Virus record (IMG/VR): IMGVR_UViG_2529293151_000014
Direction: 5' to 3' (one strand)
Source of the DNA: a virus
Lineage: Duplodnaviria; Heunggongvirae; Uroviricota; Caudoviricetes
DNA: 45,248 nucleotides
Numbering within the stretch: the stretch's first letter is position 1; the number at the start of each line of letters is the position of its first letter. Below are positions 9,001-12,000 of this stretch, one piece after another. Position numbers: made by a program.

Positions 9001-12000
9001 TTGGCTTTGATTTTTAAAGGAAATAAAAAAAGGGGCGAATGCCCCCTTATGGAAGGTTTGCTAGTTTTGCATCGACAACTACGCCGATGATTTTGCAGTT
9101 TCCGTTGATCTCGATCATCGGATATTGTGGGTTAAGTGGTTTTAGAAACTTCCTGCCTGCATCAATAACTAACTTCTTGAAAGTTGCCTCGTTTTCTCCT
9201 TCGAGCTTTGCAACTACCAGTTTCCCGTTACGCGGCTCTACTTCAGGATCGACGAGTATTATCATTCCTTCAGGGATACTGAGACCGGCCGGAGCCGTCA
9301 TTGAGTCTCCCTTCACGTCCAACCAAAACGAATCTTCTGAACAGTCTACGGTTGTATCGTACCAGTTATCTATTGCACGCTTATGATATGGTTCTACAGC
9401 TTCCATCCAGCATCCTGCGCTCACCCAGCTAATCAGAGGGTATGACCCTCTTGGATCATGCCTACTGTGATAGGCAATGTTTGAAAGACTTTCCTCTCCT
9501 TTCATCAGATAGTCAGGGGAACACTTCAACGCATTAGCCAGGGCGAGAAGATTCTCTCCATTTGGCTCTGTCTCAGAGCGTTCCCACTGAGATATGGCAA
9601 CATTAGACACGCCGACCATCTTTCCAAGTGCGGCCTGCCTGATCTTGAGTTCTTTTCTCCGAGCGCGAATGCGCTCTCCCATCAATTGAGTTTTCATAGT
9701 TAAGACATCTTAAATAAACTTGACTTAAGATTCCTTTAGTGGATAATTTAAGTGTTCTTTAATTTCGGAGCGAGTCTATGTACAAGAAAGATGTTATCGA
9801 CCACTTCGGAACCCAGCGTGCTGTAGCTAAAGCGTTAGGCATTAGCGACGCAGCAGTCTCTCAGTGGAAGGAAGTCATCCCAGAGAAAGACGCCTATCGA
9901 CTGGAAGTCGTTACAGCTGGCGCCCTGAAGTATCAAGAAAGCGCTTACCGCAAAGCGGCATAAGCAAATTGCTCTTTAACAGTCATGGTCCTCATTCCCG
10001 CCGAAATGCGGGAATACAACGCGCATAAGTTGATGCGCATAACTTCTTATTTGTTAAGGAAATACTTACATATGGTTCGTGCAAACAAACGCAACGAGGC
10101 TCTAAGAATCGAGAGTGCGTTGCTTAACAAAATCGCAATGCTTGGAACTGAGAAGACAGCGGAAGCTGTGGGAGTTGATAAGTCGCAGATCAGCAGGTGG
10201 AAGAGGGACTGGATTCCAAAGTTCTCAATGCTGCTTGCTGTTCTTGAATGGGGCGTCGTTGACGACGATATGGCTCGATTGGCACGACAAGTTGCTTCGA
10301 TTCTCACCAATAAAAAACGCCCGGCGGCAACCGAGCGTTCTGATCAAATACAAATGGAATTTTAACAACATCCAACGAGGTAATTATATGCGAAACAAAG
10401 GCTTTAATCCACCTGATACACACAAAGAAGCTAAGCGTTTGCGCTTCCTTCGTTCCATTGATGAAAGAACTCAAATCTCTTTTGTGAAAGTTGCCAGAAC
10501 TGAGCTTCTGAAGGCTGAGGCGAGGGCGTTGCTCCCGTCTCTACCAAAAGAGGAGGGATATACGTTCATTCCAAACGCATTTCTGGAAAAGCTTCTCAAA
10601 GAAGACATATCCGTAAGTCAGTTTAACGATGTTCTTAAGGTCTTTCGTCAAGGCAGGTAGTTATGAGCAATACAGCAAAAATCTACGATTTCAGCGCCGC
10701 ACACGAGCGCAGGAGCAACAGGATGGAGAACCAGAAAACTGGTTACATTCCGTTGTACCGGAGCATTCTGAAACAGTCATGGGCGAAAGATGTTTATCTT
10801 CGCACCCTGTGGGAAAACCTTCTCCTGAATGCCGCCAGAAAGCCATACAAAGCGAATTTCAAAGGTCATGAATGGCATCTGCAACCCGGTCAACTGGTTG
10901 TGACAGCAGCTGATTTAGGTCTTCAGTTATGCGACAGACATGGCAAGCCAGCAAGCCGTGATCAGGTTGAGCGGATGCTTCAGGTTTTTGTGAAAGAGGG
11001 GATGATCTCCATTGATGGAGAGAAGCAAAAAGGTCGTGTGATCACCATCACAAATTATCATGAATACGCTCAAAAAATGGACAATTCACCCGCACATGAA
11101 GCCGCACAAACAACCGCACATGATGCCGCACATGATGAAGCCAGTAATGGCGCGGCTTTCAGCGTACATGCCGCACATGAAAGCGCACATGAAGCCGCAC
11201 AAACAACCGCACATCATGAACAAGAAGGTATTAACAAGAATATAAATAATACCCCCCTACCCCCCAATGGGGGCGGCGATGGGCAGGTTAAACCTGAACG
11301 TCGCAAGGCAGAACGAATCGACTACGAATCCTTCCTGAACGCCTACAACACCGAAGTCGGTGACAGACTGCCACACGCTGTTGCGGTCAACGAGAAACGC
11401 AAACGCCGCCTGAAGAAAATCATCCCGCAACTGAAAACGCCAAACGTGGACGGTTTCAGAGCGTATGTCAGGGCGTTTGTGCATCAGGCCAAGCCGTTTT
11501 ACTTCGGAGACAACGACACGGGCTGGACGGCAGATTTTGATTACCTGCTGAGGGAAGATTCGTTAACGGGAGTTCGGGAAGGGAAGTTTGCAGACAGGGG
11601 GATTGCATGAGACAGGATATCGAAGCGAGCGTTATCGGTGGCCTGCTGATTGGTGGATTAACACCGACTGCCAGTGACGTTCTGGCAACGCTTGAGCCGG
11701 AAGCGTTTTCAATTCCGCTCTACCGGAAAGCCTTCGAGGTTATCCGCAAGCAGGCGAGAAACAGAAACCTAATCGACGCGCTGATGGTTGCCGAGGCGTG
11801 CGGAGAGGAGCATTTCACGTCAATCCTGATGACCAGCAAAAACTGCCCGAGTGCCGCAAACCTGAAGGGATATGCCGGAATGGTCGCGGATAACTATCAC
11901 CGCCGTCTGGTGCTGGAAATCATGGATGAAATGCGTGAACCAATTCGGAGCGGAACCATCGACGCATCGAGTCAGGCGATGGATGAGCTTGTAAAGCGTC

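What the first reader, a model, noticed from the sequence alone, without database searches (positions are those of the whole stretch)
11088..11260. Iteron-type origin embedded in the O-like initiator gene
A 31-bp sequence is exactly repeated (11091-11121 and 11185-11215), with additional CCGCACATGA copies between, followed by an AT-rich stretch (11221-11252). This iteron-plus-AT-rich architecture inside the initiator gene mirrors the lambda origin. The repeats also produce an HEAAQTTAH amino-acid repeat linker in the protein and a spurious His/Met-rich ORF in another frame.
Basis: partly seen in the sequence, partly recalled or inferred. Interest (0 to 1): 0.45.

Follow-up and report, generated by a model that had tools for sequence, protein, structure and literature searches.

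The report
Phage replication origin inside initiator gene
The repeats are very probably the phage's DNA replication origin, built from binding sites for its own initiator protein and written into the flexible middle of that protein's gene as in phage lambda; the arrangement is ordinary, but I found no description of this version, and it carries an extra motif shared with unrelated phage and plasmid origins.

Summary
The region is two blocks of four 12-bp direct repeats (core CCGCRCAT), a 33-bp spacer, then the least stable AT-rich stretch of the gene. All of it lies in the linker of an O-like initiator (Pfam Phage_rep_O), whose gene sits upstream of a DnaB-type helicase gene.

Evidence from 47 Enterobacterales loci (330 units) points to selection on the DNA, not the peptide:
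- The codon before the core encodes nine amino acids but ends in C in 99% of units.
- His is CAT 259:3.
- The synonymous Ala base (GCA or GCG) is uniform within each genome (0 of 10,000 shuffles). It tracks two helix-turn-helix residues (D100/H, A82/S-T) perfectly across several type switches on the N-domain tree.

Relatives with other N-domains (lambda, P22/HK97, phage L, S.Inf 5-2, ENT1) carry different repeats at the same position. The mosaic junction lies in the AT-rich tract.

Unexpectedly, the spacer core CCAGTAATGGCGCGGCT recurs inside iteron origins next to unrelated replication genes (Rep_3/RepB, D5-type primase-helicase, AAA_25). Its function is unknown; a primase start site is one untested idea.

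The parts
10663..11610 (+). O-like replication initiator gene (315 aa). An alternative start lies at M21 (ATG 10723), preceded by AGGAG at 10711-10715.
   Evidence: ORF. Pfam Phage_rep_O aa 20-132, E 3.4e-15. phrog_345 'replication initiation O-like', E 2e-100. 98.7% DNA identity to the CUS-3 O gene.
10720..11082 (+). Coding region of the N-terminal winged-helix DNA-binding domain. It includes A82 (10906-10908) and D100 (10960-10962), the two residues that track iteron type.
   Evidence: Pfam match. AlphaFold secondary structure gives H82-86, H99-111 and a hairpin at 115-129, with pLDDT only 55-71. Alignment columns 75 and 93 associate perfectly with iteron type.
11089..11136 (+). Iteron block I: four 12-bp direct repeats (CCCGCACATGAA, GCCGCACAAACA, ACCGCACATGAT, GCCGCACATGAT).
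   Evidence: The position matrix from 330 units gives the core xCCGC[A/G]CATxxx.
11137..11169 (+). Conserved 33-bp spacer between the blocks. The core CCAGTAATGGCGCGGCT lies at 11141-11157 and extends through TTCAGCG to 11164.
   Evidence: Conserved in 47 loci, including synonymous sites, in S.Inf 5-2 and ENT1 and in phage L. The same 17-mer lies in iteron origins next to unrelated replication genes.
11170..11217 (+). Iteron block II: four 12-bp direct repeats (GCCGCACATGAA, AGCGCACATGAA, GCCGCACAAACA, ACCGCACATCAT).
   Evidence: The exact 31-mer copies at 11091-11121 and 11184-11214 are 93 bp (31 codons) apart.
11211..11252 (.). AT-rich tract and probable DNA unwinding element. It begins with CATCATGAACAA, whose synonymous positions are almost fully conserved, and contains the mosaic junction at 11236-11246.
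   Evidence: GC 30%. Least stable duplex in the locality. AT fraction is 64-78% in all 47 loci, and the first six tail bases (GAACAA) are each the majority base in at least 90% of loci. BLAST matches to the two module partners overlap at query 574-584.
11260..11273 (.). Short inverted repeat CCCCCC-AAT-GGGGG at the right edge of the AT-rich tract. It may bound the origin on the right, but this is weak.
   Evidence: Read directly from the sequence. Similar C-run/G-run pairs occur in HK97, S.Inf 5-2 and ENT1, where the C-terminal domain differs. Not tested further.
11263..11607 (+). Coding region of the C-terminal domain of the initiator, the presumed helicase-recruiting module. It is shared with the HK97/P22-type gp18.
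   Evidence: 96-97% DNA identity to HK97, ST104, HK544 and mEp213 over query 574-948. Protein comparison. AlphaFold pLDDT is 70-80 for aa 217-310.
11607..14000 (+). DnaB-type replicative helicase gene (797 aa), the likely partner recruited at the origin. It is interrupted by a 339-aa intein at nt 12210-13226.
   Evidence: Pfam DnaB and DnaB_C, with LAGLIDADG_3 and Hom_end_hint in the insert. Colinear with the 458-aa CUS-3 helicase apart from the insert.
9720..9747 (+). pR-like promoter (TTGACT-16-GATAAT) upstream of cro. Rightward transcription from it would cross the origin.
   Evidence: Consensus scan only. Gene order cI-cro-cII-O-helicase. Its role at the origin is inferred by analogy with lambda.

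Best explanation
The segment 11089-11252, possibly extending to 11273, is most likely the vegetative replication origin of this lambdoid phage, embedded in the linker of its O-like initiator gene.

Shown by sequence:
- Two blocks of four 12-bp direct repeats (core CCGCACAT) flank a conserved 33-bp spacer.
- An AT-rich, easily melted tract follows.
- The repeats are constrained as DNA.
- One core base covaries with two residues of the initiator's helix-turn-helix.

Inferred by analogy with lambda O, P22 gp18 and SPP1 gp38:
- The N-terminal winged-helix domain of the initiator binds the repeats and assembles a nucleoprotein complex on both blocks.
- That complex, helped by supercoiling and probably by rightward transcription from the pR-like promoter, opens the AT-rich tract.
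- The C-terminal domain, the same module as in HK97/P22 gp18, brings in the phage's own DnaB-type helicase, whose gene starts at the last base of the initiator gene.
- Host primase and polymerase then start replication.

The peptide encoded by the repeats is predicted to be a disordered linker. That would explain how a DNA signal can be written into a coding region.
For: 1. Anatomy. The repeats and the AT-rich tract are real and non-random.

2. Position. Lambda's annotated ori iterons 1-4, the four 18-bp repeats of HK97/P22 gene 18, and the GenBank-annotated putative ori of phage L all lie at the same place: after the N-domain and before an AT-rich linker.

3. Different N-domain, different repeats.
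- CCGCRCAT in this clade.
- CGATRAA in S.Inf 5-2, with a 47%-identical N-domain and the same C-domain.
- GTCGAA in ENT1.
- TGTCCAACGGA in phage L.
- GTCAATCAA in phiAT3.

4. Nucleotide-level constraint in 330 units from 47 loci.
- Codon 1 encodes 9 amino acids but ends in C in 99% of units (Pro CCC 143/143, Ala GCC 89/89, Thr ACC 23/23).
- The core Ala codon is GCG 137, GCA 117, GCT 1, GCC 0.
- His is CAT 259 against CAC 3.
- In conserved N-domain columns the major codon averages only 0.65.

5. Within-genome uniformity. The synonymous core base is 0.988 uniform within genomes against 0.684 in shuffles (0 of 10,000 reach the observed value). Flanking positions 1 and 10-12 are not homogenised.

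6. Specificity covariation. D100 against H, and A/P82 against S/T, match iteron type in 47 of 47 loci. The two types interleave on the N-domain tree, and alignment columns closer to the repeats associate less well. Both residues fall at the starts of the two predicted HTH helices.

7. Population data. Among the distinct haplotypes (46 in all) from 80 close relatives, core sites vary at 6/64 against 24/65 for non-core plus spacer (Fisher p 3e-4).

8. Modularity. The N-domain plus repeats travel together. At least four C-terminal modules, paired with either a lambda-P-like loader or a DnaB-type helicase, join within the AT-rich tract.

9. Linker. Residues 136-216 have pLDDT below 50.

10. Literature. 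The concept is established for lambda and Stx phages, for phage L and P22, and for SPP1 oriL (PMC7466680, PMC8022706, PMC6316719).
Against: - No experiment shows binding or origin activity for this repeat family, and I found no paper describing it.
- The units are 12-bp direct repeats without dyad symmetry. The lambda picture of a dimer on each symmetric iteron therefore cannot be transferred directly.
- Copy number is loose. Natural alleles have one, two or three blocks. This is also what a slippage-prone linker would show, although lambda needs only two iterons in vitro (PMC7466680).
- The residue/base covariation could partly reflect physical linkage or shared ancestry.
- The AlphaFold model is poor overall (mean pLDDT 53), so the placement of residues 82 and 100 rests on secondary structure only.
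Confidence: 0.85

Rival explanations
1. The repeats are a neutral, slippage-prone peptide linker (AAHE/AAQT repeats) with no function as DNA, and the origin lies elsewhere.
For: The encoded segment is predicted to be disordered. Alleles with one, two, three or expanded blocks exist. A period of 12 nt keeps the reading frame.
Against: Synonymous positions are fixed while the amino acids vary: codon 1 has 9 amino acids with 99% C at the third base, CAT outnumbers CAC 259:3, and GCC and GCT are almost never used. The synonymous A/G choice is uniform within each genome while neighbouring positions are not. Phage L has 11-bp units, which cannot give a simple peptide repeat. Repeat type follows the type of DNA-binding domain.
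Confidence: 0.04
2. The repeats are initiator-binding sites, but they serve mainly for autoregulation, titration or exclusion of related phages. Unwinding and initiation happen at another site.
For: Iterons in plasmids also act in copy-number control, and cloned lambda ori fragments inhibit related phages (titles and abstracts listed). Sequence alone cannot separate binding from initiation.
Against: The repeats are directly followed by the least stable duplex of the region. That AT-rich tract is kept in all 47 loci. The layout matches experimentally defined origins. No second cluster of the core exists in the window.
Confidence: 0.07
3. The conservation reflects an RNA element in the mRNA, either a structure or a regulatory site, and not a DNA site.
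For: The single sequence folds better than shuffles (z -3.4; 2 of 200 shuffles fold as well).
Against: The consensus fold of 21 diverse homologues is negligible: -3.35 kcal/mol, 5 pairs, no compensatory change. No Rfam family matches anywhere in the window. All units are direct repeats, rich in C and A, with no complementary partner.
Confidence: 0.02

Closest known systems
ori-lambda (iterons 1-4 plus the AT-rich tract inside gene O)
   Same: The origin lies inside the initiator gene, after the N-terminal DNA-binding domain. The repeats are followed by an AT-rich tract. The hybrid or mosaic junction lies in that tract. The initiator belongs to Pfam Phage_rep_O (PMC7466680).
   Different: Lambda has four ~19-bp dyad-symmetric iterons spaced 20, 24 and 23 bp apart. 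Here there are eight 12-bp direct repeats in two blocks around a conserved spacer. Lambda O recruits P plus host DnaB; here the partner is a phage DnaB-type helicase. The spacer motif is absent from the lambda ori.
P22/HK97-type gene 18 origin
   Same: The C-terminal domain of the initiator is the same (96-97% DNA identity), the helicase partner is of the same type, and the module order is the same.
   Different: The N-domain is unrelated at the sequence level. There are four 18-bp ATTAGCCAAGTCGGCTAA-type repeats with lambda-like spacing and no spacer motif.
Putative ori of Salmonella phage L gene 18 (rep_origin 31650-31726 in MW013503; PMC8022706)
   Same: The architecture is the same: three short direct repeats, a spacer containing CCAGTAATGACGCGGCT, three more repeats, then an AT-rich tract, all inside an O-like gene upstream of a DnaB-type helicase gene. 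The initiators are distant homologues (22% identity, E 4e-10).
   Different: The unit is 11 bp (TGTCCAACGGA), not 12 bp (CCGCACATGAAG). The passages of the phage L paper that I retrieved describe six imprecise repeats and do not mention the shared spacer. The phage L ori is also only a prediction.
SPP1 oriL inside gene 38 (replisome organizer gp38)
   Same: Direct repeats bound by the initiator, plus an AT-rich unwinding element, lie inside the initiator's own gene. A DnaB-family helicase is recruited (PMC6316719).
   Different: The host is Gram-positive, a separate loader (gp39) is used, there is a second origin (oriR), and I did not test sequence relatedness.
Iteron origins of Rep_3/RepB plasmids and phage-plasmids (for example pRM10386-1)
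   Same: An array of direct repeats lies next to a melting region. The same CCAG(T/A)AATGGCGCGGCTTACAGCG motif sits between the iterons and the GATC-rich/DnaA-box region.
   Different: The initiator fold family is unrelated, the origin is intergenic, and a DnaA box is present.
Phage G4 complementary-strand origin and primase 'G sites' (relevant to the spacer motif only)
   Same: The annotated G4 primer AGTAGGGACGGCGGCTTTCGCCGTCCAT resembles AGTAATGGCGCGGCTTTCAGCGTACAT. The template strand carries CTG. The best motif-matrix hit in the G4 genome lies inside its origin region.
   Different: The score margins are small (z 4.4-4.7 against 4.2-4.3 for the next hit). No comparable stem-loops are evident. 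The top hit in alpha3 and in phiK lies outside their G-H intergenic region, though alpha3's weak second hit touches that region. The G-site literature could not be retrieved, so this remains a lead and not a membership claim.

Membership tests
Lambdoid origin embedded in the initiator gene (ori-lambda type) | Lies inside the initiator gene, between the parts coding for the N-terminal DNA-binding domain and the C-terminal recruiting domain | tested here: met
   The repeats encode aa 143-185 and the AT-rich tract runs to about aa 197. The Pfam domain ends at aa 132, and the C-terminal module starts at about aa 192-201.
Lambdoid origin embedded in the initiator gene (ori-lambda type) | Several repeated sites followed directly by an AT-rich, easily melted tract | tested here: met
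   Eight units are followed by the least stable 30-mer of the region (z 3.4). The AT fraction is 64-78% in all 47 homologous loci.
Lambdoid origin embedded in the initiator gene (ori-lambda type) | Iterons of about 18-19 bp with internal dyad symmetry, spaced about two helical turns apart | tested here: not met
   The units are 12 bp, all in one orientation, contiguous, and without inverted symmetry. Lambda and HK97 controls show 18-20 bp units spaced 20, 24 and 23 bp apart.
Lambdoid origin embedded in the initiator gene (ori-lambda type) | Repeat sequence is specific to, and evolves together with, the initiator's N-terminal domain | tested here: met
   Five N-domain types carry five repeat types at the same position. 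Within this clade the A/G core base tracks D100/H and A82/S-T in 47 of 47 loci.
Lambdoid origin embedded in the initiator gene (ori-lambda type) | Initiator binds the repeats, and the segment supports initiator-dependent replication | not testable with these tools
   This needs binding assays and a minimal-replicon test.
Pfam PF04492 Phage_rep_O (the protein) | Score above the family's gathering threshold | tested here: met
   56.8 bits against a cut-off of 28.7, E 3.4e-15, full profile 1-95.
Phage-L-type bipartite origin | Two blocks of 11-12-bp direct repeats flank a spacer containing CCAGTAATG(G/A)CGCGGCT, followed by an AT-rich tract, inside an O-like gene | tested here: met
   Window coordinates 11089-11252 compared with phage L (L143) 31650-31770. 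The initiators are homologous at E 4e-10.
G4-type primase start site ('G site'), for the spacer motif | CTG on the template strand at the primer start | tested here: met
   The bottom strand reads AGCCGCGCCATTACTGG, and CCAGTA is invariant in the selected instances, which were retrieved with a pattern that fixes CCAG and AA. A trinucleotide is very weak evidence on its own.
G4-type primase start site ('G site'), for the spacer motif | Sequence and structural similarity to established G sites (conserved blocks and stem-loops) | tested here: inconclusive
   The best matrix hit in G4 lies in its origin, and the annotated primer is visibly similar. The margins are small. The top hits in alpha3 and phiK lie outside their G-H intergenic region, and the R100 region downstream of repA gave only weak negative scores. 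No consensus hairpin was found.
G4-type primase start site ('G site'), for the spacer motif | Primase starts a primer at this site | not testable with these tools
   This needs in vitro priming or 5'-end mapping of nascent strands.

The most novel reading that the evidence does not exclude
The roughly 24-nt spacer motif CCAGTAATG(G/A)CGCGGCTT(N)CAGCG (window 11141-11164) may be a generic, initiator-independent core signal of enterobacterial iteron origins. It would be read by a host component and not by the phage initiator. The leading candidate is DnaG primase, with the motif marking the first primer start. In this orientation the primer would be extended rightward into the unwinding element. 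The motif occurs between iterons and the melting region next to at least five unrelated replication-protein families: O-like wHTH, Rep_3/RepB, D5-type primase-helicase, AAA_25 helicase and a 5-kb plasmid Rep. It does not covary with iteron type. I found no description of it in the searchable literature.
Probability: 0.3. Interest if true: 0.7.

Novelty: new member of a known kind. Interest (0 to 1): 0.4.

Why it matters
For this phage group (CUS-3, JEP4, Kapi1, many Stx2a-converting phages, and prophages across Enterobacterales) the analysis locates the probable origin. It also gives a concrete, testable recognition rule: core CCGCACAT goes with Asp100/Ala82, and CCGCGCAT goes with His100/Ser-Thr82. 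That is useful for annotation, for predicting replication compatibility between mosaic phages, and for engineering Stx-phage replicons. The 31-mer direct repeat explains the 31-aa length polymorphism of this protein in databases. The wider point is the spacer motif. If one short sequence is shared by origins that use unrelated initiators, it marks a step common to them, such as priming, helicase loading or a host factor. That step could then be studied in several replicons at once.

Tried and rejected
- Literature searches for the repeat (CCGCACATGA) and for the spacer motif on both strands returned only unrelated primers or nothing. Searches on CUS-3 and on replication protein O gave nothing specific. 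The Eru papers on Stx-phage replication regions do not discuss origins.
- The first scan of viral contigs returned only relatives at 98-100% identity, which were useless for covariation. One-genome-per-species contigs solved this.
- RNA explanations were rejected: no Rfam hit and no conserved fold, despite a single-sequence z of -3.4.
- A PDB sequence search of the N-domain found nothing usable. The AlphaFold model was too poor to justify a fold search.
- Lambda 'ice' and the oop region were checked as relatives of the spacer motif. Neither the lambda stretch that contains the annotated ice site nor the window's oop-like region contains it.
- The motif is absent from the P4 ori and crr, the lambda ori and the HK97 ori, and was not found in the phiAT3 locus.
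- The R100 region downstream of repA gave only weak hits with a G4-like look.
- The key G-site paper (Tanaka et al. 1994) could not be retrieved.
- I considered sigma-54, sigma-32, IHF, Fis, LexA and Ter consensus sequences by eye, from memory. None fits the motif. No formal scan was run.
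Full report
**Context.** The window is the early-right region of a lambdoid phage. It contains, in order:
- a cI-type repressor (9047-9697, minus strand);
- cro (9778-9963);
- cII (9985-10365; Pfam Phage_CII, E 1e-47);
- a small ORF of unknown function;
- a 315-aa ORF (10663-11610) matching Pfam Phage_rep_O (aa 20-132, E 3.4e-15) and phrog_345 'replication initiation O-like';
- a 797-aa DnaB-type helicase gene (11607-14000), which starts at the last base of the initiator gene.

The initiator gene is 98-99% identical to those of CUS-3, JEP4, Gally, HF4s and about 50 Stx2a-converting phages. The window itself is IMG/VR contig UViG_2534681700_000005.

**The observation.** An exact 31-mer occurs at 11091-11121 and at 11184-11214. 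No match appeared in 100 shuffles. The full structure is more regular than two copies:
- in codon register, four 12-bp units at 11089-11136;
- a 33-bp spacer at 11137-11169;
- four more units at 11170-11217;
- the tail GAACAAGAA;
- an AT-rich tract.

GC falls to 30%. The 30-mer starting at 11222 is the least stable duplex between 9.7 and 12.6 kb, and it lies in the top 0.1% of the window. The peptide repeat and the His/Met-rich ORF in the other frame are by-products of the repeats.

**Modular structure.** BLAST splits the gene in two. Bases 1-584 (N-domain, repeats and half of the AT tract) are 75-80% identical to Klebsiella and Yersinia phages. In those phages the C-terminal half is lambda-like and the next gene is a lambda-P-like loader. 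Bases 574-948 are 96-97% identical to HK97, ST104 (P22-like), HK544 and others, which have a different N-domain. The two matches overlap at 11236-11246, inside the AT-rich tract. In the protein database, the same N-domain plus repeats is joined to at least four different C-terminal continuations directly after '...NKNINN'. This is the classic lambdoid pattern: origin-specific half plus origin, exchangeable recruiting half. The lambda record itself carries recombination marks in its AT-rich tract.

**Same place, different repeats.** I ran the same repeat finder on controls and relatives.
- Lambda: its four annotated 'ori iterons' (ATCCCTCAAAACGAGGGA; spacing 20, 24, 23).
- HK97/P22 type: four ATTAGCCAAGTCGGCTAA units with the same spacing.
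- Klebsiella: 4+4 CCGCACAT units.
- Yersinia: 3+3 CCGCACAT-type units.
- Salmonella phage S.Inf 5-2 (N-domain 47% identical, same C-domain as the window): two exact 34-bp blocks made of CGATRAA units.
- Enterobacter phage ENT1: two 32-bp blocks of GTCGAA units.
- Lactobacillus phiAT3 (31% identical): four or five 11-bp GTCAATCAA units followed by an AAG-rich tract.
- Salmonella phage L (22% identical, E 4e-10): 3+3 units of TGTCCAACGGA. GenBank annotates that stretch as a putative rep_origin, and its authors describe it as the likely origin (PMC8022706).

**DNA-level or peptide-level constraint.** A scan of one genome per species gave about 45 further loci across Enterobacterales with 54-74% identical N-domains and the same layout. 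From 330 units in 47 loci the position matrix is xCCGC[A/G]CATxxx.
- The first codon of the unit encodes nine different amino acids, yet its third base is C in 99% of units. Pro is always CCC (143/143), Ala always GCC (89/89) and Thr always ACC (23/23).
- The core Ala codon is GCG or GCA (137 and 117), with GCT once and GCC never.
- His is CAT 259 times and CAC 3 times.
- For comparison, at N-domain columns with a conserved amino acid the commonest codon averages only 65%.
- The stretch CATCATGAACAA at the edge of the AT tract keeps its synonymous positions in nearly all loci: the block-II end is CAT in 47 terminal units, and each of the six GAACAA bases is the majority base in at least 90% of loci.
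- Among the distinct haplotypes from 80 near-identical phages (46 in all), core positions vary at 6 of 64 sites against 24 of 65 for non-core and spacer sites (p 3e-4).

A peptide constraint cannot produce this pattern.

**A specificity signal.** The synonymous third base of the core Ala codon is A in all units of 18 genomes and G in all units of 29 genomes, with three exceptions among 330 units. Within-genome uniformity is 0.988 against 0.684 in shuffles, and 0 of 10,000 shuffles reach the observed value. Positions 1 and 10-12 show no such homogenisation, so wholesale gene conversion is not the cause. In an alignment of the N-domains, two columns separate the two types perfectly: residue 100 (Asp with A, His with G) and residue 82 (Ala/Pro with A, Ser/Thr with G). 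The next-best columns reach 94-96%, including columns that lie physically closer to the repeats. On a neighbour-joining tree the two types interleave, with several switches. AlphaFold places both residues at the starts of helices 82-86 and 99-111, the helix-turn-helix, which is followed by a beta hairpin at 115-129. The model is weak (mean pLDDT 53; N-domain 55-71), so only the secondary structure is used. Residues 136-216, which include the repeat-encoded peptide, score below 50, as expected for a disordered linker.

**Mechanism.**
- Shown: the anatomy, the DNA-level constraint, and the covariation with the DNA-binding domain.
- Inferred from lambda, Stx phages, P22 and SPP1 (PMC7466680, PMC8022706, PMC6316719): the N-domain binds the units; the complex opens the adjacent AT-rich tract; the C-domain recruits the phage's DnaB-type helicase.

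Transcription from a pR-like promoter (9720-9747) crosses the site, as it does in lambda. Direct 12-bp repeats without dyad symmetry suggest monomer-per-unit or cooperative filament-like binding, not lambda's dimer-per-iteron binding. This is untested.

Copy number is flexible. Alleles of 284/264, 315/295 and 346/326 aa carry one, two or three blocks and differ by exactly 31 aa (93 bp), the distance between the exact 31-mers. One allele has an expanded block I. Lambda needs only two iterons in vitro, and Stx phages have six, so this flexibility does not argue against an origin.

**Rivals.**
- A neutral repeat linker is contradicted by the codon data.
- An RNA element is contradicted by the lack of any conserved fold (-3.35 kcal/mol, no compensatory pairs) and of any Rfam match, despite a single-sequence z of -3.4.
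- Binding sites used only for regulation cannot be excluded by sequence. This is less likely given the adjoining melting tract and the absence of any other cluster of cores.

**An unexpected extra: the spacer.** The 33-bp spacer is more conserved than the iterons. Its core CCAGTAATGGCGCGGCT (11141-11157), including the synonymous positions AGT AAT GGC GCG GCT, is kept in both iteron types and in S.Inf 5-2, recognisably but with several substitutions in ENT1, and with one change in phage L. It does not covary with iteron type.

Besides O-like genes, the motif appears in other contexts, with an extended match (…CTT[T/A]CAGCG). There it is usually flanked by other short repeats on one or both sides. 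The neighbouring genes in those contexts are replication genes of unrelated families:
- a D5_N/DUF5906 primase-helicase;
- an AAA_25 helicase;
- a Rep_3 initiator;
- a phrog_16230 replication protein;
- a different O-like/DnaD-like initiator.

In plasmids the motif lies about 200 bp upstream of repB in roughly 95-100-kb phage-plasmid-sized replicons. There it sits exactly between five iterons and a GATC-rich region with a DnaA box. It also lies about 400 bp upstream of rep in 5-kb plasmids. The least stable 30-mer lies to the right of the motif in 13 of 16 contexts, though not all are independent. A few singletons in ordinary coding DNA, without the extended match, are probably chance.

The motif is absent from the lambda, HK97 and P4 origins. 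It is not palindromic, and by eye it fits none of the host-factor consensus sequences I know.

One lead comes from memory of G4 priming and was checked against the G4 record. The annotated G4 primer AGTAGGGACGGCGGCTTTCGCCGTCCAT resembles AGTAATGGCGCGGCTTTCAGCGTACAT. The template strand carries the CTG that primase uses. The best motif-matrix hit in the whole G4 genome falls inside its complementary-strand origin. The margins are small, alpha3 and phiK give nothing convincing, and the G-site literature could not be retrieved. I therefore treat this as a hypothesis, at about 0.3.

**Verdict.** It is a new member of a known kind. Its closest described relative is the predicted ori of phage L, and it departs from lambda in iteron anatomy. 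Interest is modest for the origin itself. It is raised somewhat by the explicit residue-to-base recognition rule and by the shared spacer motif, whose function is unexplained.

Noticed in passing
window 11141-11164; also L143 31687-31703, L150 6530-6546, L160 5825-5841, L162 4473-4489, L168 3942-3958, L211 5331-5347, L264 2500-2525, L265 2602-2627: The 17-24-nt motif CCAGTAATG(G/A)CGCGGCTT(N)CAGCG in the ori spacer recurs inside iteron-type origins next to unrelated replication genes (Rep_3/RepB, D5-type primase-helicase, AAA_25, other O-like genes). It does not covary with iteron type. Its function is unknown. It resembles the start of the G4 primer.
   Followed up: partly
window 12210-13226 (helicase aa 202-540): The DnaB-type helicase carries a 339-aa intein with a LAGLIDADG homing-endonuclease domain, inserted in the Walker A loop (ARPGMGK|...|TELALK). 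The intein starts with Ala, not Cys or Ser, and ends in HN, followed by Thr. The CUS-3 helicase is colinear and 456/458 identical without the insert. From memory, an Ala start suggests a non-canonical (class 2/3) splicing mechanism.
   Followed up: partly
window 10711-10735: Codons 17-24 (AGG AGC AAC AGG ATG GAG AAC CAG) have almost fully conserved synonymous sites across 47 species. AGGAG lies 7 nt before the ATG of Met21. Database proteins come in length pairs that differ by 20 aa (346/326, 315/295, 284/264). An internal or alternative start at Met21 is likely.
   Followed up: no
window 10663-10692 compared with L089 687-716: The first ten residues (MSNTAKIYDF) resemble lambda O (MTNTAKILNF), although the rest of the N-domain is unrelated at the sequence level. 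This may be a conserved boundary or a promoter-overlap segment at the cII-O junction.
   Followed up: no
window 10314-10341, minus strand: A strong intrinsic terminator (AGAACGCTCGGTTGCCGCCGGGCGTTTTTTATT) lies antisense to the 3' end of cII. From memory it matches the lambda oop RNA terminator, so an oop-like antisense RNA is probably made here.
   Followed up: no
protein database alleles P0001-P0035 (3 blocks), P0054-P0088 (1 block), P0046 (expanded block I): The iteron array is polymorphic in nature. One-, two- and three-block alleles differ by exactly 31 aa (93 bp), the spacing of the exact 31-mers. This points to unequal recombination between the 31-mers. Whether one-block alleles still replicate is unknown.
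   Followed up: partly
window 11260-11273; L004 about 1518-1540; L087 about 1985-2010: A C-run/G-run inverted repeat (CCCCCC-AAT-GGGGG) follows the AT-rich tract. It recurs at the start of at least two different C-terminal modules (P22/HK97 type and ENT1 type). It may be a right-hand origin element like the palindrome to the right of the lambda AT tract (the latter from memory).
   Followed up: no
window 13256-13281, minus strand; L004 2507-2532: The second-best hit of the spacer-motif matrix (ACCAGGAATAACGCGGCTTGCAAC, 18 bits against 42 for the ori copy) lies antisense inside the helicase gene. It is also present in HK97. It may be chance plus coding conservation.
   Followed up: no
window 10388-10660: A roughly 90-aa ORF between cII and O matches phrog_2519 (unknown function, E 1e-56). 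Klebsiella and Yersinia relatives have a DNA-binding or KilAC antirepressor gene at this position instead.
   Followed up: no
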